DNA of 64,000 nucleotides from Escherichia coli (GTDB lineage Bacteria > Pseudomonadota > Gammaproteobacteria > Enterobacterales > Enterobacteriaceae), in the NCBI RefSeq assembly GCF_002854065.1, contig NZ_CP024147.1. One strand, 5' to 3'. The position numbers and the translations under genes were made by a program. Shown here piece after piece: positions 1-9,262 of this stretch. Under the pieces are notes generated by a model. That model was not told the DNA's origin and made no database searches. It was given only the letters and a program-made list of their open reading frames with translations. Each line of letters begins with the position of its first letter. The first letter of the stretch is position 1.

Positions 1-520
1 GGTTCGAGTTCTGCTGTGATAACGGAGAGAGACTGCGTGTCACGTTCGCGCTGGACTGCTGTGATCGTGAGGCACTGCACTGGGCGGTCACTACCGGCGG
101 CTTCAACAGTGAAACAGTACAGGACGTCATGCTGGGAGCGGTGGAACGCCGCTTCGGCAACGATCTTCCGTCGTCTCCAGTGGAGTGGCTGACGGATAAT
201 GGTTCATGCTACCGGGCTAATGAAACACGCCAGTTCGCCCGGATGTTGGGACTTGAACCGAAGAACACGGCGGTGCGGAGTCCGGAGAGTAACGGAATAG
301 CAGAGAGCTTCGTGAAAACGATAAAGCGTGACTACATCAGTATCATGCCCAAACCAGACGGGTTAACGGCAGCAAAGAACCTTGCAGAGGCGTTCGAGCA
401 TTATAACGAATGGCATCCGCATAGTGCGCTGGGTTATCGCTCGCCACGGGAATATCTGCGGCAGCGGGCTTGTAATGGGTTAAGTGATAACAGATGTCTG
501 GAAATATAGGGGCAAATCCA
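1..520 (+). mobile_element. IS2 right-end fragment; element continues beyond the window start
   Basis: Frame-0 translation from nt 3 gives IS2 InsD C-terminal half (…[20 protein letters not shown]…[19 protein letters not shown]…NRCLEI); terminal sequence GGGGCAAATCCA ends at 520 as recalled for the IS2 inverted repeat. Confidence 0.85.
3..509 (+). CDS. insD: IS2 transposase InsD (OrfB), 5'-partial at window edge
   Basis: Integrase-core motifs in translation; ORF runs open to window start. Confidence 0.85.
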
Positions 521-1063
521 TTGACCAAGTACTTTTGTTAAAGCGGTAACTCTGCCAAGCAATTCTGCCGACTGATTTTTTGCCTGCTGATAAAGGTCCA
601 TAAAACATATCTTCTTGGCTGGAAAACGTTCCATCAAAGATTGATATTCTTCTAGCTCGCCCAGAATCACAGCAAGTTTGGCTTCATGAATAACTTTTTC
701 TTTTTCTATATCGACCAAGAAACGATCAGCCCCCGGTGCCGACGGTTTCATTTTTTCGGGCATAGCGATAAGCCGCGAATTCTTTGGCAACGCTCTTGGT
801 ATGAAAATAGTTGAATGAAAACTTTCCGTTTTCTTATACACACTTCTGGACTTGCCACCACTACTCTCAATTTTATAGATGAAGCCCAGGGACTCTAACC
901 GAAGAAGTTGTCGGTGAATGAATTTTCTAGCCTCAGTAACTTCTGCGTAGTCATCTGTAATCTTCAGCAAAGCATCCCTGAGATGGATAGCGCAGAACTC
1001 ATTAAAACCCATCTCAATCAATAACTTATACATATATGGATGCAACTTTACTGCAGATTTCAT
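521..1063 (-). pseudogene. Hypothetical protein gene, 3' end interrupted by the IS2 insertion (last 28 codons of the 209-aa ORF are IS2-derived)
   Basis: ORF 434..1063 crosses the IS2 terminus at 520/521; native part ends …LTKVLGQ; no family recognised. Confidence 0.5.
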
Positions 1064-1161
1064 TATAAAAAATCCAAAATAACAAACTTAGAATTGCTAA
1101 GTATACAGAAACCAACGAAACTTAGACAATCTCAGCACCCTAAGGCAATGATGATGAATAC

Positions 1162-1473
1162 GTGGCTCACCCAAACCCGATACCCGAGAGGCTCAAAGCG
1201 GCCAGAACAAAAGCTGGGATCACTCAGAAGGAATTGGGGATCCGAATTGGCATGGAACCCAGCTCGGCGAGTGGTCGTATGAACCATTATGAGAAAGGGA
1301 GACACACTCCTGACATTGATACCCTCAAGCGTATGGCTGATGAACTTGGGGTACCAATTAACTATTTCTTTTGCGAGAACGACATAACTGCAGAATTAGC
1401 ATGTCTGATAGCTAAAATGACTGAGCAGCAGCAGATTGAATTGATTGCTATGCTAAAGAAAAATCAATCTTAG
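1162..1473 (+). CDS. XRE-family helix-turn-helix transcriptional regulator (103 aa, GTG start)
   Basis: HTH signature ITQKELGIRIGMEPSSASGRMNHYEKGRHTPDIDTLKRMADELGVPINYFF; divergent from 521..1063 gene, same strand as downstream ATPase. Confidence 0.7.
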   Translation: MAHPNPIPERLKAARTKAGITQKELGIRIGMEPSSASGRMNHYEKGRHTPDIDTLKRMADELGVPINYFFCENDITAELACLIAKMTEQQQIELIAMLKKNQS

Positions 1474-1861
1474 ATTTTTCACAGAACTCATACCTGAATA
1501 ATATCAGGGTTTCTTAGATATCCTTGACCTGCGACGTATACGCCTCCTCGAAGGGTATCCGCAATTTCTTATCTCATGTATCAGCTACCACCCAAACCGA
1601 ATCTTCATCAGTTCCGGACGTCATGTAATAAACCATAATTCTGGAAATCAAGGAAGCAAATCTAATTGTGTAAATGACCCCGTTGTTTCAGTAATTGAGT
1701 AACATGCCATAAACGGGATTAATAAAGACTTCATTTTAATTTCAACGCCCTTATCAGCCTGAAGTAAAATATGACTTGCAGATCACGTGAATACCTAAGC
1801 TGGAAGAGTATCTTTTACTATTGCAGTCCAACGTGAGAAAACAACAAGTCAACAAGGATTC

Positions 1862-4474
1862 ATGATGCTCAGTAGCGAGTTTTTGCGCTTTTTTCAAACC
1901 TTAAACACAACAGAAGTCCCCAGTAATGTCAGGAAAATAGCGAATCTTGTGTGGGATAACCTAGATGATATAACCCCATTGGGCACTTCGCAGGGTCAGC
2001 GAGTCAGGCGCATTGTCTCTCTGGCACAGTCTGCATGGGATGCCCTCAGTACAGAAGTACAGCCACTACCAGAGCAGACCGCTGAACGCGTCTCCACGTT
2101 TAGTCGGCTGAGAAAGATATCTGTTGGACCATTTAGAGGGTTTGCAAAGCAAGAAGAATTTGATCTGGATTCACGTCTAGTGCTGATTTACGGCCCCAAT
2201 GGTACTGGGAAGTCAAGTTTCTGCGAAGCGCTTGAATATACATTACTGGGCAATGTGGCTGAGGCCGAAAGCAAGCGTTTCCGGAATCAAAACGACTATT
2301 TTAAAAATGCACATGTCAATCGGTTTTCTGTTCCAGAGATAATTGGTGTCGGAGATCATGGGCAGGATGTGTCGATTGAGAATAACGAAGCACAGTATCG
2401 CTTTTGCTTTGTTGAAAAAAATCGTATCGACAACTTTTCAAGAATCGCGGCTCTGGTCCCAACAAGGCAGACTGAACTTATCTCAACACTATTCGGGCTA
2501 GATAGTTTTAATGATTTTGTGCGAAATTTTACATCAGATATTGATGCCAGATACATCGATCTAACAGGCGTAAAAGCAGGTCAGTTGGCAGAAAAGCGCA
2601 AGTCTCTTCTGGCTGCACAGCAGCAATTGGCGACAGGTCAGGCTGCCCTGGAAGGGTTGGCATCAGAGGAACAGACACTGGCTTCTGTTTATCGTGAAGG
2701 CCTGTCTTACCAGCAGATGCTAGCTGAGTTAAAAGGGGATGAACAAAATATCGGAACCATCCGACAGCTTGAAACAGAGTTACAAACGCCACTTCCGAAT
2801 CAGAGTAGCCTGACATCTGCTATTTTGAACGATATAAGTAGCGCTGTTGAAACGGCACTTATAGATCTGGAAAGCAAGCAGAAGCAACTGGCAGAGGCAA
2901 GTCAGCAGGTTTCATATAAAAATTTATTTGAAGCAGTTGTCCAGTTACAGGGTACCAGCCCGGAACAATGCCCTGCATGCCATACCCCTCTTCAGCAAAC
3001 CGCCAAAAACCCCTACAGCCATGCCTGTGATGAATTGCTAAAGCTTGAGTTTCTGTCGACATTACAGGGAGAAATAACTCAGCTGGAAAAATTAATTGGC
3101 CAGTTGATGTACAGTGTTTCACAAGTAATCGGCACATGCTGTCAGTTTTTGCCACATGACAATGCTCTTGAAGTATTCCGAAATGAAAATGGCATCACTT
3201 TATGGCGTAATCTGCGGCAGCAAACAGGAGATGGCATAACTCCCTGGGCTCAGCTTGAAAAACAGGTGTGGCATCTGGAGGGAGAAGATAAAAAAATAGA
3301 GGAAGCAACTAAATTGCGAGAATCCCGTCAGCGGGATCTTGCGAGAATGCGTGAATCTGATCGCCAGATAACGATTTTGCAGACAAGAAGAGATACGATA
3401 GAAAAAACCATCTCTGCGGCTCAGTTGTTGATTGGCAACTTTGATACTGAAAACAGGCAGCTAATTGAAGAAGTTGCTCACGAAGAAGACATTGTAAGGA
3501 AAAACAAAGCAATTTCAGAAGCGTATTCCCGGTTCGTTTTACAGCTGAACGCCTATAAAGAGGGATTACCTCAGAGACTTGTAGCGAATCTTGGGGATCA
3601 CATTGTCACTCTCTACAACGCATTTAACCGTAATGACCCCCCGGGAGAAAAGCTAGCAGGTATCAAACTACCTCTGCTGCAGAATCAGCGACTGGAAGTA
3701 GCGTTTCAGAATAATCCAACGCAACTATTCGATGCCCTGCATGTACTTAGTGAGGGGCATGTACGCTGTATAGGGCTGGCTATTTTGTTGGCAAAAAACA
3801 TTAATGAACAGTGTCCACTTTTGATATTTGATGACCCGGTCAATGCTATTGATGACGATCACAGAGAATCGATTCGGAGAACGTTGTTTGAAGATGCTTT
3901 CTTTGCTGAAAAACAAATCATTCTGGCCTGCCATGGAGAGGAATTCTTCAAAGACATCCAGAATTTATTGCCAGCGCCGGTTGCCGCACAGTCCAAGACT
4001 TTCAGCTTCTTACCGCGTCTTGACGAATTGCATATCCGCGTAGATTTTAACTGCGCTCCCAGGAACTATATTATTTCTGCACGAGGGCATTATGAGCGTA
4101 ATGAGATTCGGGAGGCGCTTGCAAAATGCAGACAGTCACTTGAATCGTTGATGAAGGGGAGAGTCTGGCGATATGTAAATAAATATGGTGATGGTAATCT
4201 TAGTCTCAAGCTAAGGTCAGCAACGGCACCTATTGAGTTACGTAACTTGTCGGATCAATTGAAGAAACAGATCAATAAAGCTGAGTTCCGTGACCAAAAT
4301 AAAAACGCCGTATTCACACCAATTGATGTGTTAACTGGGCTAAGTGGAGAATCACGAGAATGGCGCTATCTAAATAAAGGTACGCATGAGGAAGACGGCA
4401 GGGCTGAGTTTGATCGAGCAACAGTAGAAACCATGATTTCTGCCCTTGAGGCGCTCGATCAGGCTGTGAGTTAA
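1862..4474 (+). CDS. Rad50/SbcC-like ABC ATPase with central CxxC zinc hook and C-terminal putative nuclease domain (RloC-like anticodon-nuclease candidate), 870 aa
   Basis: RBS AAGGA at 1852; Walker A GPNGTGKSS (nt 2192-2218); CPAC at nt 2969-2980 at the midpoint between the ATPase halves; signature-like LSEGH, Walker B LLIFDDP (nt ~3818-3838), H-loop ACHGEEF; C-terminal ~200 aa with REWRYLNKGTH (R-x6-H). Confidence 0.55.
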   Translation: MMLSSEFLRFFQTLNTTEVPSNVRKIANLVWDNLDDITPLGTSQGQRVRRIVSLAQSAWDALSTEVQPLPEQTAERVSTFSRLRKISVGPFRGFAKQEEFDLDSRLVLIYGPNGTGKSSFCEALEYTLLGNVAEAESKRFRNQNDYFKNAHVNRFSVPEIIGVGDHGQDVSIENNEAQYRFCFVEKNRIDNFSRIAALVPTRQTELISTLFGLDSFNDFVRNFTSDIDARYIDLTGVKAGQLAEKRKSLLAAQQQLATGQAALEGLASEEQTLASVYREGLSYQQMLAELKGDEQNIGTIRQLETELQTPLPNQSSLTSAILNDISSAVETALIDLESKQKQLAEASQQVSYKNLFEAVVQLQGTSPEQCPACHTPLQQTAKNPYSHACDELLKLEFLSTLQGEITQLEKLIGQLMYSVSQVIGTCCQFLPHDNALEVFRNENGITLWRNLRQQTGDGITPWAQLEKQVWHLEGEDKKIEEATKLRESRQRDLARMRESDRQITILQTRRDTIEKTISAAQLLIGNFDTENRQLIEEVAHEEDIVRKNKAISEAYSRFVLQLNAYKEGLPQRLVANLGDHIVTLYNAFNRNDPPGEKLAGIKLPLLQNQRLEVAFQNNPTQLFDALHVLSEGHVRCIGLAILLAKNINEQCPLLIFDDPVNAIDDDHRESIRRTLFEDAFFAEKQIILACHGEEFFKDIQNLLPAPVAAQSKTFSFLPRLDELHIRVDFNCAPRNYIISARGHYERNEIREALAKCRQSLESLMKGRVWRYVNKYGDGNLSLKLRSATAPIELRNLSDQLKKQINKAEFRDQNKNAVFTPIDVLTGLSGESREWRYLNKGTHEEDGRAEFDRATVETMISALEALDQAVS

Positions 4475-4607: not shown

Positions 4608-5336
4608 TTAATCACTGAATACCAACGAATCTAATACACCTTGTCCACTATGAACTCCTCCTTCAACTGACTCTGCTGATTTGCTACGGATCAAATACCC
4701 AGCAAAACTGTGATCAGCGCTAGATGCATTGTTACCTATCTGGACGGAGAACATTCCTAGTTCGCTGACCAGATCAGTAACCTGATATAACTCCCCTTTA
4801 CGGACAACCAGAGAAGGTGTAGCTCGCGGGACAGGATGTATCCGACGCATGAACGACCAGGATTGATATTGCAGCGGGTCAAGTCTTGCCAGTTTTAACT
4901 GGATATCAGAGCCAAACAGACAATGCCCACCCCCTTCGCCCTGGTTTTTGAGAACCCATGAATCAGAAGGAGACTCTTTTACAATGCTGATTGTATCAGG
5001 GCTAACAGGAAGCATTTCGCCCAACACCATTTTTATGATATCAACCTCTTCCGGCTTCAGTCCAAAAGCAATCAGTTCATCGCACCCCAAATGAGAGAGC
5101 AACATTTGTACTCGCTTACTTGTCGCAAGTTGCTGAGCGACTGTTGCATTCACCGCAACTCGGTGCTGCTCAATCAATACTCGCGTGGCCATTAGCGTCT
5201 GGCAACACTCCTTCTCATTGAGACTGGCGGCTTCATAATCTGAGTATTGATATCCGGCACGTAAGTAAACAGAAGTAGTATGGGTGTATGAACTTGTCAT
5301 TGTTTTGACATTTATCAAATATATTCGATTATGCAT
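4608..5336 (-). CDS. Hypothetical protein (242 aa; alternative start at 5300 gives 230 aa), divergent from arsR; contains vicinal Cys pair (KECCQT)
   Basis: Only long ORF covering this interval; convergent with the ATPase gene; no recognised family; weak RBS at both candidate starts. Confidence 0.45.
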   Translation of the reverse strand: MHNRIYLINVKTMTSSYTHTTSVYLRAGYQYSDYEAASLNEKECCQTLMATRVLIEQHRVAVNATVAQQLATSKRVQMLLSHLGCDELIAFGLKPEEVDIIKMVLGEMLPVSPDTISIVKESPSDSWVLKNQGEGGGHCLFGSDIQLKLARLDPLQYQSWSFMRRIHPVPRATPSLVVRKGELYQVTDLVSELGMFSVQIGNNASSADHSFAGYLIRSKSAESVEGGVHSGQGVLDSLVFSD

Positions 5337-6173: not shown

Positions 6174-7925
6174 ATGAAATTCTTACAGAACATCCCCCCT
6201 TATCTGTTTTTTACTGGTAAAGGAGGCGTTGGTAAAACCTCTATTTCCTGCGCCACGGCGATCCGTCTGGCAGAACAGGGTAAACGAGTGCTGCTGGTCA
6301 GTACCGATCCGGCCTCAAACGTAGGCCAGGTCTTTGGCCAGGTTATTGGCAATACTATTCAGCCAATAGCCACTGTTCCTGGATTGTCGGCACTTGAGAT
6401 TGATCCTCAGGCCGCTGCGCAACAGTACCGGGCCAGAATCGTTGACCCTATTAAAGGTGTCCTGCCTGATGACGTCGTTAGCAGCATCAACGAACAACTG
6501 TCTGGTGCATGCACAACAGAGATTGCGGCTTTTGATGAGTTTACCGGATTACTGACAGACGCCTCTTTGCTGACCCAGTTTGACCATATCATCTTTGATA
6601 CCGCGCCAACCGGCCATACTATTCGCCTTCTCCAGTTGCCAGGCGCCTGGAGCAGCTTTATTGACAGCAATCCCGAGGGCGCATCCTGCCTCGGCCCGAT
6701 GGCGGGGCTGGAAAAACAGCGTGAACAGTATGCCCATGCCGTTGAAGCACTGTCCGACCCAGCGCGTACCCGCCTGGTTTTAGTTGCCAGACTGCAAAAA
6801 TCCACCCTGCAAGAAGTCGCCCGAACTCATTTAGAACTCGCCGCAATTGGCCTTAAAAATCAGTACTTGGTCATTAATGGCGTTCTGCCCAAAACTGAAG
6901 CGGCAAACGATACACTGGCTGCGGCTATATGGGACCGTGAACAGGAGGCGCTGGCCAATCTTCCTTCTGACCTTTCCGGTCTGCCAACTGACACGTTATT
7001 CCTCCAACCACTCAATATGGTCGGCGTGGCTGCATTAAGTGGGCTTCTCTCCTCTCAGCCTGAGGCAGCATCATCTTCTGAAGAATACATTCAGCAACGA
7101 CCTGAAATTCCGTCGCTCTCAGCGTTAGTCGATGATATTGCCCGTAACGAACATGGTCTGATAATGCTAATGGGCAAAGGCGGTGTGGGGAAAACCACGA
7201 TGGCGGCAGCCATTGCCGTCAGACTGGCCGAAATGGGATTTGATGTCCATCTGACCACCTCAGATCCAGCAGCACACCTCAGCACAACCCTGAACGGTAG
7301 CCTTAACAATCTGCAGGTCAGTAGAATCGATCCTCACGAGGAAACAGAACGCTATCGTCAGCATGTTCTTGATACCAAGGGTGGAGAACTGGATGAAGCG
7401 GGTAAACGCCTGCTGGAAGAAGATTTACGCTCTCCTTGTACCGAAGAGATTGCGGTCTTCCAGGCCTTTTCACGGGTGATTCGTGAAGCGGGTAAGCGCT
7501 TCGTGGTCATGGATACGGCACCCACCGGGCATACCCTACTGCTGCTGGATGCCACCGGGGCGTATCACCGCGAAATTGCTAAGAAAATGGGCGATAAAGG
7601 CCATTTCACCACGCCAATGATGCAGCTTCAGGACCCGGAGCGAACCAAAGTGTTACTGGTCACGCTGCCGGAAACCACGCCCGTGCTTGAGGCGGCAAAT
7701 TTGCAGGCCGACCTTGAACGCGCAGGGATTCATCCCTGGGGCTGGATTATCAATAACAGCCTTTCCATTGCGGATACCCGTTCGCCGCTGCTTCGTCTGC
7801 GGGCGCAACAGGAACTTCCGCAGATCGAGAGTGTTAAACTCCAGCATGCCAGTCGCGTAGCTCTTGTTCCTGTACTGGCGTCAGAACCGACCGGCATCGA
7901 CAAACTCAAACAACTCGCTGGTTAA
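6174..7925 (+). CDS. arsA: Arsenite-translocating ATPase ArsA (two nucleotide-binding domains)
   Basis: Two GKGGVGKT P-loops and two DTAPTGHT motifs; start at MKFLQN after RBS AGGAGG. Confidence 0.92.
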
Positions 7926-7972: not shown

Positions 7973-9262
7973 ATGTTACTGGCAGGAGCCATTTTTATCC
8001 TGACCATCGTGTTGGTTATCTGGCAGCCAAAGGGATTAGGCATTGGCTGGAGCGCCACGCTGGGTGCCGTACTGGCTCTGGCATCGGGTGTGATTCATAT
8101 CGCCGATATTCCGGTGGTGTGGAATATCGTCTGGAACGCCACGGCCACCTTTATTGCCGTCATTATCATCAGTCTGTTGCTGGATGAGTCCGGCTTTTTT
8201 GAATGGGCTGCACTGCACGTTTCCCGCTGGGGCAATGGGCGTGGACGTCTGCTATTTACCTATATTGTTCTGCTCGGCGCGGCGGTGGCGGCATTGTTTG
8301 CCAACGATGGCGCGGCGTTAATTCTGACGCCGATCGTTATCGCCATGCTACTGGCGCTGGGATTCAGTAAAAGCACCACGCTGGCTTTCGTGATGGCCGC
8401 AGGGTTTATTGCCGATACCGCCAGCTTGCCACTTATCGTATCGAACCTGGTCAATATCGTTTCGGCTGATTTCTTCAAACTGGGATTCACGGAGTATGCG
8501 TCAGTTATGGTGCCGGTGGATATTGCCGCCATTGTCGCCACGCTGGTGATGCTGCATCTTTTTTTCCGCAAAGATATCCCGCCCACTTATGAGCTGGCGC
8601 GACTGAAAGAACCCGCAAAAGCCATCAAAGATCCTGCGACGTTCAGAACCGGCTGGGTTGTGCTCCTCCTTCTGCTGGTCGGTTTTTTTGTCCTTGAGCC
8701 GATGGGGATCCCTGTGAGTGCGATTGCGGCAGTGGGGGCGGCAATCCTGTTTGCGGTGGCCAAAAAAGGTCATGGTATTAACACCGGTAAAGTGCTGCGC
8801 GGCGCGCCCTGGCAGATCGTGATCTTCTCACTGGGGATGTATCTGGTGGTATACGGGTTGCGTAACGCCGGTCTGACGGATTATCTCTCTGACGTGCTGA
8901 ACGTACTGGCAGATAAAGGACTGTGGGCCGCGACGCTGGGGACAGGATTCCTGACTGCATTCCTCTCTTCTATCATGAACAATATGCCGACCGTACTGGT
9001 TGGCGCACTGTCGATTGATGGCAGCACCGCGACCGGCGTTATCAAAGAAGCGATGATTTATGCCAACGTCATTGGCTGCGATCTGGGGCCGAAAATCACC
9101 CCTATTGGTAGCCTGGCGACACTGCTCTGGCTGCACGTGCTTTCACAGAAGAATATGACAATCTCGTGGGGATACTACTTCCGCACCGGGATTATCATGA
9201 CCCTGCCTGTGCTGTTTGTAACGCTGGCTGCGCTGGCGCTACGTCTCTCTGTCACTTTGTAA
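7973..9262 (+). CDS. arsB: Arsenite/antimonite efflux permease ArsB
   Basis: 429-aa polytopic membrane protein, C-terminus …[12 protein letters not shown] as in ArsB. Confidence 0.92.

What the first reader, a model, noticed from the sequence alone, without database searches (positions are those of the whole stretch)
1..1063. IS2 insertion truncates a gene adjacent to the XRE/ATPase module
The IS2 terminus at 520 interrupts a minus-strand ORF divergent from the XRE gene; its last 28 codons are IS2 sequence. If that gene were a partner of the ATPase module (for example an antitoxin or immunity component), the insertion would alter the module.
Basis: seen in the sequence. Interest (0 to 1): 0.3.

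Follow-up and report, generated by a model that had tools for sequence, protein, structure and literature searches.

The report
IS2 splits a regulator–helicase operon
An IS2 element has inserted into the last eight codons of a VspR-family DNA-binding gene in an E. coli genomic island, separating it from the helicase gene it is normally coupled to; this is an ordinary insertion event, and the neighbouring ATPase is unrelated cargo, not a partner.

Summary
IS2 ends at window 520, and the minus-strand ORF 434..1063 has 181 native codons followed by 28 IS2 codons. A 5-bp target duplication (TTGAC) and an uninterrupted allele (E. coli 100416, 99.9% identical) show a genuine transposition.

- **Small truncation.** The intact protein has 189 aa, so only 8 poorly conserved residues are lost.
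- **Gene identity.** It is a VspR-family protein: Pfam VspR_N plus VspR_C, with a winged helix and a helical hairpin.
- **True partner.** It is the first cistron of a two-gene operon. Its stop overlaps the start of a RadD/XPB-like SF2 helicase by 7 nt (ATGTTGA). The helicase lies just outside the window.
- **Regulator.** The divergent XRE is a C.Csp231I-type controller protein. Two palindromic operators in the 98-bp intergenic region overlap the predicted VspR-gene promoter.

This XRE/VspR-like/helicase trio was intact or recognisable in about 50 loci. It occurs in type I-F3b CRISPR-associated transposons and in GInt islands. The window's ATPase accompanies it only in copies of this same island.

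The main likely effect of IS2 is to uncouple and silence the helicase. That step is inferred, not measured. An independent IS3 insertion lies 9 bp away in Salmonella Agona.

The parts
1..520 (+). Right-hand 520 bp of IS2: the 3' part of the transposase orfB and the right inverted repeat ending at 520. The other 811 bp lie left of the window.
   Evidence: Complete element = L002 6791-8121 (1,331 bp).
521..525 (.). Right copy of the 5-bp IS2 target-site duplication TTGAC.
   Evidence: Single copy in the uninterrupted allele at L001 8001-8005; the second copy is at L002 6786-6790.
434..1063 (-). Chimeric ORF of 209 codons: 181 native codons of a VspR-family gene (521-1063) fused to 28 IS2-encoded codons (437-520), plus the stop codon.
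   Evidence: Precomputed Pfam hits VspR_N (PF27213) and VspR_C (PF27192) on the family. AlphaFold2 model.
1064..1161 (.). 98-bp divergent control region between the VspR-like gene and the XRE gene.
   Evidence: Length (98-105 bp) and sequence are conserved from E. coli to Vibrio and Neiella.
1087..1101 (.). C-box operator, a perfect palindrome CTTAGaattgCTAAG. It is distal to xre and lies 24 bp upstream of the VspR-like start codon.
   Evidence: Found at -38/-39 from the VspR-like ATG in nearly all loci that have the ~100-aa XRE.
1121..1135 (.). Second C-box, CTTAGacaatCTCAG (one mismatch), proximal to xre.
   Evidence: Found at -72/-73, always 34 bp from the first box.
1100..1129 (-). Promoter-like site TTGTCT-18-TATACT for the VspR-like/helicase operon. 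Its -35 lies inside the xre-proximal box and its -10 abuts the distal box.
   Evidence: This is a consensus match only; function is inferred.
1162..1473 (+). XRE gene (103 aa, GTG start): a C.Csp231I-type controller protein, homologous to the Xre regulator of type I-F3b CRISPR-associated transposons.
   Evidence: PDB 3lfp, E 1.1e-18. PADLOC Control_protein, E 4.9e-26. 68% identical to the Xre of a Vibrio type I-F3b transposon. Petassi et al., bioRxiv 10.1101/2020.07.02.184150.
1493..1518 (+). Terminator-like hairpin plus T-rich tail just after the XRE gene.
   Evidence: Consensus match only.
1862..4474 (+). SMC/LmuB-like ATPase (870 aa). It is adjacent island cargo, not a conserved partner of the interrupted gene.
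17453..23013 (+). GInt-type recombinase operon (ginA, ginB, ginC, ginD) at the far end of the same island. ginB and ginC are each split into two ORFs here.
   Evidence: Intact versions in L011 have 574 and 698 aa.

Best explanation
IS2 transposed into the last 8 codons of a 189-codon VspR-family gene.

**The protein.** The predicted fold is an N-terminal winged helix, a linker and a C-terminal helical hairpin.

**The operon.** This gene is the first cistron of a bicistronic operon. Its stop overlaps the start of a 462-aa RadD/XPB-like SF2 helicase by 7 nt (ATGtTGA). The helicase lies just left of the window, next to gorA.

**The regulator.** The operon is transcribed divergently from a C.Csp231I-type XRE controller. 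Two palindromic operators 34 bp apart cover the predicted operon promoter.

**The cassette.** The three genes form a portable cassette found in type I-F3b CRISPR-associated Tn7-like transposons (between tnsC and tniQ) and in GInt islands. The adjacent ATPase is variable cargo.

**Shown consequences of the insertion.**
1. The last 8 residues are replaced by 28 IS2-encoded residues, starting 4 residues before the end of the last predicted helix.
2. 1,331 bp of IS2 now lie between the VspR-like gene and the still intact helicase gene, 20 nt upstream of its ATG.

**Inferred consequences.**
- Translational coupling is lost.
- Transcripts must cross about 1.25 kb of untranslated IS2 in the antisense direction, so the helicase is probably silenced or strongly reduced.
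- The VspR-like protein probably remains largely functional.
- The ATPase is not expected to be affected.

**Inferred cassette logic.** This follows the characterised transposon Xre and restriction-modification C-proteins. XRE autoregulates and represses the VspR-like/helicase promoter. The pair would then be expressed in a burst when the element enters a cell lacking XRE and be shut off afterwards. What the DNA-binding protein and the translocase do in that burst is unknown. My best guess, at low confidence, is an establishment or cargo-regulating role, by analogy with V. cholerae VspR, a repressor of its island's genes.
For: - Insertion anatomy.
- Uninterrupted allele at 99.9% identity.
- VspR family: precomputed Pfam VspR_N and VspR_C on all close homologues; UniRef name 'Transcriptional regulator VspR' for the identical 189-aa protein.
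- Fold of the VspR-like protein: AlphaFold2 mean pLDDT 82, winged helix 1-90, helices 110-146 and 148-185. Residues 187-189 are below pLDDT 50 and the 181-189 block averages 57. The nearest solved folds are PadR/MarR-type regulators.
- Operon coupling: a 7-nt RTGYTRA overlap in about 42 of 50 loci, which also explains the near-invariant terminal Cys189.
- Helicase: Pfam ResIII; motifs GAGKT31, DEIH116, TGT151 and QVLGR344; RadD and XPB are the nearest structures; no nuclease domain; 462-aa ORF intact in the IS2 strain.
- Trio conservation and contexts.
- Operators: two boxes at fixed positions in nearly all loci, with the two half-site classes co-varying between the boxes. A third perfect box lies about 30-40 bp upstream of tniQ in six transposon loci, as published for type I-F3b Xre.
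- Promoter overlap.
- Known IS2 outward promoter element: the -35 is in the right inverted repeat (PMC9330008). Here that end faces away from the helicase.
- No consensus promoter in IS2 on either strand.
Against: - No expression data exist. Polarity and loss of coupling follow from general knowledge of Rho-dependent polarity and of overlapping cistrons.
- The promoter scan is crude. It does not even detect IS2's own promoter, so a weak outward promoter at the IS2 left end cannot be excluded.
- The helicase ORF is undamaged in the IS2 strain. That would also fit continued expression or a recent insertion.
- XRE binding to these particular boxes, and repression of the VspR-like promoter, have not been tested for this cassette arm. 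The published experiments cover pXre and ptniQ only.
- Direct similarity to V. cholerae VspR itself was not measured. Membership rests on Pfam and UniRef labels.
- The island is decaying generally (ginB and ginC are split; IS1 and IS2 are present). The insertion may therefore have no selective meaning.
Confidence: 0.75

Rival explanations
1. One reading: the interrupted gene is an antitoxin or immunity partner of an XRE/ATPase module, and IS2 changes how that module works.
For: Physical proximity in this island, and the same arrangement in the Salmonella Agona copies. V. cholerae VspR represses neighbouring defence genes, so some regulatory influence on cargo cannot be excluded.
Against: A homologue of the ATPase was found beside the gene only in copies of this one island, not in roughly 45 other loci. 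The gene next to XRE varies: CBASS, a TrlF ATPase plus SIR2, CTD10/MC6 genes, tnsC. Other nearby ATPases are unrelated. The gene's stop overlaps a helicase start in about 42 of 50 loci.
Confidence: 0.05
2. The VspR-like/helicase pair with its C-protein is itself a costly defence-type system, and IS insertions at the junction are selected because they switch the helicase off.
For: The cassette sits in defence-rich islands. C-protein control is typical of restriction systems. The helicase gives weak matches to PbeA and to type I, III and IV restriction motor subunits. Two different IS elements (IS2, IS3) inserted 9 bp apart in two genera. Helicase ORFs are disrupted or shortened in L008, L009, L019, L037, L046 and L053-55.
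Against: No nuclease or other effector domain in either protein. The VspR-like protein has no PADLOC match. The promoter layout predicts early expression followed by repression, which is the pattern of a protective function rather than a toxic one. The cassette occupies a fixed position inside the transposition gene set of CRISPR-associated transposons. IS2 and IS3 belong to one family and may share a target hot spot. Some shortened ORFs may be sequencing errors.
Confidence: 0.12
3. Neutral decay: the cassette matters only during transfer. In a long-resident, immobilised island the IS2 insertion is one of several inconsequential lesions.
For: ginB and ginC are split in the same island. IS1 and IS2 are present. 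In strain 100416 the ATPase and gin genes are cut by IS3-family and IS1 elements. The IS2 allele accounts for about 2-5% of recorded copies.
Against: This is compatible with the main explanation rather than opposed to it. The clustering of two independent insertions within 9 bp is not expected from random hits in a ~2-kb operon (rough chance about 1%). The helicase and the VspR-like body remain intact.
Confidence: 0.3

Closest known systems
IS2 (IS3 family) insertions with polar effects on downstream genes
   Same: 1,331-bp element, imperfect terminal repeats, 5-bp target duplication and a frameshifted transposase. It is inserted inside an operon with its left end toward the downstream gene, so the known outward -35 in the right repeat cannot drive that gene.
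   Different: Nothing unusual about the element itself. The polar effect is inferred here, not measured.
VspR (VC0177) of the Vibrio cholerae VSP-1 island, a repressor of the island's CBASS genes
   Same: Same Pfam domains (VspR_N and VspR_C), about 175-190 aa, encoded in a mobile island next to defence cargo. Some relatives sit beside capV-dncV-type CBASS genes (pWL297) or beside a DncV-like gene (Shewanella plasmid).
   Different: Here the gene is translationally coupled to an SF2 helicase and paired with a divergent C-protein. I could not check whether VSP-1 has either, nor measure identity to VC0177. DNA targets are unknown.
Xre regulator of type I-F3b CRISPR-associated transposons (called RtbC; Petassi et al. 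2020), and the restriction-modification controller C.Csp231I
   Same: About 100 aa, strong similarity to C.Csp231I, and two operator motifs upstream of its own gene. In the transposon loci I collected, a third motif lies just upstream of tniQ, as published.
   Different: In the E. coli island there is no tniQ and no third box in 64 kb. The regulator's only visible targets are its own promoter and the divergent VspR-like/helicase promoter. The papers I could read do not mention the VspR-like/helicase pair.
GInt islands (Tn6571 family; ginABCD recombinase operon plus cargo)
   Same: The island carries a ginA-D operon (one annotated integrase, two large proteins and one small protein). It sits at a site-specific position at the 3' end of gorA and carries defence and resistance cargo.
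   Different: The published GInt layout puts ginABCD at the 5' end with cargo after ginD, as in plasmids pPSV and pWL297. In the E. coli chromosome the gin operon is at the opposite end from the trio and reads outward. The GInt paper does not mention the trio.
RadD and XPB SF2 DNA translocases
   Same: Two RecA-like domains with all core motifs. These are the best sequence and fold matches.
   Different: Only about 20% identity. It lacks the accessory domains of RadD and XPB. Instead it has a ~60-residue disordered linker and a short conserved C-terminal hairpin.

Membership tests
IS2 (IS3 family insertion sequence) | About 1.33-kb element with imperfect terminal inverted repeats and a two-ORF transposase made by programmed frameshift | tested here: met
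   L002 6791-8121 = 1,331 bp. Inverted repeats at 6800-6832 and 8081-8113. RefSeq annotation 'IS3-like element IS2 family transposase, programmed frameshift'. Thousands of near-identical copies in E. coli genomes.
IS2 (IS3 family insertion sequence) | 5-bp target-site duplication, with an empty site in a related genome | tested here: met
   TTGAC flanks both ends. It is single-copy in strain 100416, which is 99.9% identical.
VspR family (Pfam VspR_N and VspR_C) | Matches to both Pfam domains | tested here: met
   Precomputed hits PF27213 and PF27192 on the cluster representative of the identical protein and on all close homologues. These models are newer than the local Pfam copy, which found nothing.
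VspR family (Pfam VspR_N and VspR_C) | DNA-binding transcriptional repressor of neighbouring island genes | not testable with these tools
   Only the fold supports DNA binding: a winged helix plus a helical hairpin that could mediate dimerisation. Function is known only for V. cholerae VspR.
Restriction-modification controller (C) protein, C.Csp231I class / type I-F3b transposon Xre | Full-length sequence similarity to C.Csp231I | tested here: met
   PDB 3lfp, E 1.1e-18 over residues 9-97. PADLOC Control_protein, E 4.9e-26.
Restriction-modification controller (C) protein, C.Csp231I class / type I-F3b transposon Xre | Two palindromic operator boxes upstream of its own gene | tested here: met
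   1087-1101 and 1121-1135. Position and 34-bp spacing are conserved, and half-site class co-varies across loci. Binding itself was not tested.
Restriction-modification controller (C) protein, C.Csp231I class / type I-F3b transposon Xre | Additional operator upstream of a controlled operon (tniQ-cas in the transposons) | tested here: not met
   Present about 30-40 bp upstream of tniQ in L007, L019, L021, L023, L047 and L048. There is no third box in the 64-kb window.
SF2 helicase/translocase | Walker A, DExH, motif III and motif VI within two RecA-like domains | tested here: met
   GAGKT31, DEIH116, TGT151, QVLGR344. Pfam ResIII above its cut-off. Model and fold matches.
   An ATPase homologue is found only in copies of the same island. 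Other neighbouring ATPases are unrelated.
GInt (Tn6571-family) genomic island | ginABCD operon: three integrase-like proteins plus a small protein | tested here: inconclusive
   Four-gene set present at 17453-23013 with the expected sizes, and ginA is annotated as an integrase. I did not compare it with the published Gin proteins. ginB and ginC are split here. The layout is permuted relative to the published one.
Known anti-phage defence systems (PADLOC-DB v2) | Profile match of the VspR-like protein or a full-length match of the helicase | tested here: not met
   No match for the VspR-like protein. The helicase gives only weak partial matches to PbeA and a type IV restriction enzyme.

The most novel reading that the evidence does not exclude
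The XRE controller already known from type I-F3b CRISPR-associated transposons is one arm of a three-gene cassette. Its other arm is a VspR-like DNA-binding protein translationally coupled to a minimal RadD/XPB-like translocase, and this arm has not been described. The cassette is shared between two unrelated kinds of site-specific mobile element (CRISPR-guided Tn7-like transposons and GInts). It may supply an XRE-gated function expressed on entry into a new host. Repeated IS insertions exactly at the VspR/helicase junction (IS2 here, IS3 in Salmonella) may reflect selection to switch the helicase off once the island is resident.
Probability: 0.3. Interest if true: 0.55.

Novelty: new member of a known kind. 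Interest (0 to 1): 0.3.

Why it matters
The IS2 event itself matters little. It is a routine insertion carried by a minority of copies of one accessory island.

The context is more useful.
- It corrects the gene assignment. The XRE belongs with the VspR-like/helicase pair, not with the ATPase, and that affects how this island's defence cargo should be annotated.
- It shows that the regulator studied in CRISPR-associated transposons travels with two conserved genes of unknown role, and that GInt islands carry the same cassette.
- The IS2 allele (CUWW06) and the uninterrupted allele (100416) are 99.9% identical across the aligned region. They form a natural near-isogenic pair for asking what the helicase does.

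Tried and rejected
- The local Pfam, NCBIfam, PADLOC and PHROGs scans of the interrupted protein gave nothing usable. Its identity came only from precomputed newer Pfam hits.
- A sequence search of PDB with the VspR-like protein gave only marginal hits.
- I asked whether ~830-870-aa ATPases near the trio in pPSV and in a Vibrio transposon were homologues of the window's ATPase. They are not.
- A profile search failed to retrieve V. cholerae VspR itself, so direct identity to VC0177 remains unmeasured.
- A tblastn of the helicase against phage genomes gave one distant actinophage hit with no informative context.
- A promoter scan of IS2 found no outward promoter toward the helicase, but the scan is too insensitive to be decisive.
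- Literature searches for VspR-like/helicase pairs or for 'VspR family' found nothing relevant. The GInt and CRISPR-transposon papers do not mention the pair.
- Assembly artefact was rejected because of the target duplication and the many independent contigs.

Full report
**1. The observation**

The window is the chromosome of E. coli CUWW06 (NZ_CP182139.1; window position 1 = record 4428288). The first 520 bases are the right-hand part of IS2. The transposase reading frame ends at 509, and the right inverted repeat ends ...GGGGCAAATCCA at 520.

In the source record the whole element is 1,331 bp (L002 6791-8121). It has imperfect terminal repeats and a frameshifted IS2-family transposase.

The minus-strand ORF 434..1063 encodes 209 aa.

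The pentamer TTGAC flanks both ends of IS2. It occurs once in an otherwise 99.9% identical uninterrupted allele in E. coli 100416. This is therefore a genuine simple transposition.

The same fusion protein is on record from 9 contigs. Contig-end-truncated forms with the same IS2 tail occur on 11 more. Native partial products that stop 1-3 residues before the junction occur on 23 others. The intact protein is on 897 contigs.

**2. What the interrupted gene is**

The intact product has 189 aa and ends ...VLGQ-HSDEHRVC. IS2 therefore removes 8 residues and adds 28.

The local profile libraries gave nothing. Every close homologue, however, carries precomputed hits to two newer Pfam families, VspR_N (PF27213) and VspR_C (PF27192). 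UniRef calls the identical protein 'Transcriptional regulator VspR'. VspR of V. cholerae is the repressor of the CBASS genes of the VSP-1 island.

An AlphaFold2 model (mean pLDDT 82) shows these parts:
- a winged helix at residues 1-90
- a disordered linker
- a long helical hairpin at residues 110-146 and 148-185

The nearest solved folds are PadR/MarR-type regulators. The IS2 junction follows residue 181, four residues before the end of the last helix. In the tail, residues 187-189 fall below pLDDT 50. The tail is poorly conserved apart from the terminal Cys.

**3. Its real partner is a helicase outside the window**

In the uninterrupted allele the stop codon overlaps the start of a 462-aa DEAD/DEAH (ResIII) helicase as ATGtTGA. 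The same 7-nt overlap, RTGYTRA, is present in about 42 of 50 loci from Escherichia to Vibrio, Photobacterium and Neiella. The overlap forces the last VspR codon to be TGY. That explains the 'conserved' terminal cysteine.

The helicase has these properties:
- All SF2 core motifs are present.
- It has two RecA-like domains, a ~60-residue disordered segment and a short conserved C-terminal hairpin. It has no nuclease domain.
- RadD and XPB are its nearest relatives by sequence and fold.

In CUWW06 the helicase ORF is intact. It now begins 25 nt beyond the left end of IS2, counting the duplicated TTGAC.

**4. The XRE belongs to this operon, not to the ATPase**

The 103-aa XRE matches the restriction-modification controller C.Csp231I (PDB 3lfp, E 1e-18; PADLOC Control_protein, E 5e-26). 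It is 68% identical to the Xre of a Vibrio type I-F3b CRISPR-associated transposon.

The 98-bp region between the two divergent genes holds two palindromes: CTTAGaattgCTAAG (1087-1101) and CTTAGacaatCTCAG (1121-1135). These are the only two such sites in 64 kb.

Across loci the boxes sit at fixed distances from the VspR-like start (-38/-39 and -72/-73). They come in two classes, CTTAG-N5-CTAAG and CTAAG-N5-CTTAG, and the class always agrees between the two boxes of a locus.

In six transposon loci a third perfect box lies about 30-40 bp upstream of tniQ. Petassi et al. showed exactly this layout for type I-F3b elements. There, Xre binds two sites upstream of its own gene (the distal one activating, the proximal one repressing) and represses tniQ-cas. 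They interpreted this as a burst of expression on entry into a new host. A later review names the regulator RtbC.

A promoter-like site on the minus strand (TTGTCT-18-TATACT, 1129 to 1100) overlaps both boxes. I therefore infer that XRE represses the VspR-like/helicase operon.

A terminator-like hairpin follows the XRE gene (1493-1508). A 388-bp gap then precedes the ATPase.

**5.

I collected 36 genome loci, several plasmid loci and metagenome or draft loci. I mapped the neighbours by tblastn.

- The helicase follows the VspR-like gene everywhere. In three cases an IS intervenes or interrupts it: L002, L046 and L053-55.
- A divergent XRE precedes the gene wherever sequence is available. It is ~100 aa in most loci and ~70 aa in two distant plasmid members.
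- A homologue of the window's ATPase occurs only in copies of this same island (CUWW06 and Salmonella Agona).
- Large ATPases near the trio in two other elements share only a P-loop with it.

The contexts were:
- 16 type I-F3b Tn7-like transposons, with the trio between tnsC and tniQ
- about 20 GInt-type elements with a ginABCD recombinase operon
- a dozen loci with no identifiable element within 10 kb

The gene next to XRE on the cargo side varies. Examples are CBASS, a TrlF ATPase with SIR2, CTD10/MC6 conflict-system genes, and this ATPase. The partner hypothesis is therefore not supported.

**6. What the insertion most likely does**

Shown:
- The protein's C-terminus is changed.
- The two cistrons are separated by 1,331 bp.
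- The helicase's upstream 25 nt, carrying at best a weak ribosome-binding site, are retained.

Inferred:
- Ribosomes now terminate 86 nt inside IS2, so translational coupling is lost.
- The remaining ~1.25 kb of IS2 is untranslated and read antisense. General knowledge of Rho-dependent polarity predicts premature termination.
- The known outward-facing IS2 promoter element is a -35 in the right repeat (PMC9330008). Here it points into the 3' end of the VspR-like gene, not toward the helicase.
- A consensus scan found no promoter in IS2 on either strand, but that scan is insensitive.

I therefore expect a near-normal VspR-like protein and a silenced or much reduced helicase, with no direct effect on the ATPase.

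**7. Decay or selection?**

In Salmonella Agona copies of the same island, an IS3 element (3-bp duplication ATG) sits 9 bp downstream of the IS2 site. It again lies between the VspR body and the helicase start, and the helicase there is also shortened to 414 aa.

Other loci show an IS66-like insertion in the helicase (L046) and shortened helicase or VspR-like ORFs (L008, L009, L019, L037, L051).

In the window ginB and ginC are split. This fits general decay of a resident island. The two insertions 9 bp apart could equally reflect a shared IS3-family hot spot or selection against helicase expression. I cannot distinguish these possibilities.

**8. Comparison with what is known, and verdict**

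- The element is ordinary IS2.
- The gene is a member of the Pfam VspR family.
- The XRE is a member of the C.Csp231I / type I-F3b Xre class.
- The helicase is a generic SF2 translocase.
- The island is GInt-like. These islands are described as defence carriers at E. coli hotspots.

The papers I could search do not mention that the transposon Xre comes with a conserved VspR-like/helicase operon, or that GInts share this cassette.

The finding as given is a routine IS insertion with a corrected interpretation, so interest is low to moderate. The undescribed arm of the cassette is the part worth following up.

Noticed in passing
window 1-23800; L003, L005, L011: The chromosomal island is circularly permuted relative to plasmid GInts. 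In the chromosome the order is gorA | helicase, VspR-like, XRE, cargo, ginABCD (reading outward) | dinQ. In plasmids pPSV and pWL297, ginABCD directly abuts the helicase and cargo follows the XRE. This does not match the published GInt layout.
   Followed up: partly
window 18749-22565: ginB (18749-19789 plus 19828-20472) and ginC (20469-22271 plus 22311-22565) are each split into two ORFs. Their intact relatives have 574 and 698 aa, so the island is probably no longer mobile.
   Followed up: partly
L053-L055 6540-7830 (Salmonella Agona; L053 lies on a plasmid with tra genes): An independent IS3 insertion (3-bp duplication ATG) lies 9 bp from the IS2 target site in the same island. It gives a different altered C-terminus (…HSDVILPT). 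The helicase there is shortened to 414 aa.
   Followed up: yes
intergenic regions of L003-L051: The two operator boxes come in two half-site arrangements, CTTAG-N5-CTAAG and CTAAG-N5-CTTAG. The arrangement always agrees between both boxes of a locus, which suggests two co-evolved regulator/operator specificities.
   Followed up: partly
L028 and L030, about 5784: A perfect operator box lies about 250 bp upstream of tnsA in two Vibrio CRISPR-associated transposons. This hints that the XRE may also control tnsABC in some elements.
   Followed up: no
helicase, L001 6595-7980 (-), residues 382-462: After the two RecA-like domains comes a ~60-residue disordered stretch. It is followed by a short conserved hairpin (residues 443-455, consensus FKQRVI.AF) that looks like a protein-docking motif.
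   Followed up: no
L008 8677-8895 and L010 8680-8886: Distant VspR-like/helicase pairs (Pseudomonas and Klebsiella plasmids) have a ~70-aa divergent XRE instead of the ~103-aa one. This parallels the two Xre size classes reported for type I-F3a and I-F3b transposons.
   Followed up: no
window 4608-5336 (-): This ORF matches only the C-terminal ATP-binding part of eukaryotic-type glutathione synthetase (Pfam GSH_synth_ATP, E 4e-28). It lies between the ATPase and two arsenic-resistance gene clusters.
   Followed up: no
L002 5238-5247 (gorA 3' end; just left of the window): Similarity to island-free E. coli genomes stops 9 bp before the end of gorA. The island therefore supplies the last codons of gorA, and its attachment site overlaps the gene's 3' end.
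   Followed up: partly
window 1862-4474: The 870-aa ATPase is closest to Lamassu LmuB-type SMC ATPases (PADLOC E 3e-26). It stands alone, without an LmuA-like effector gene beside it.
   Followed up: no
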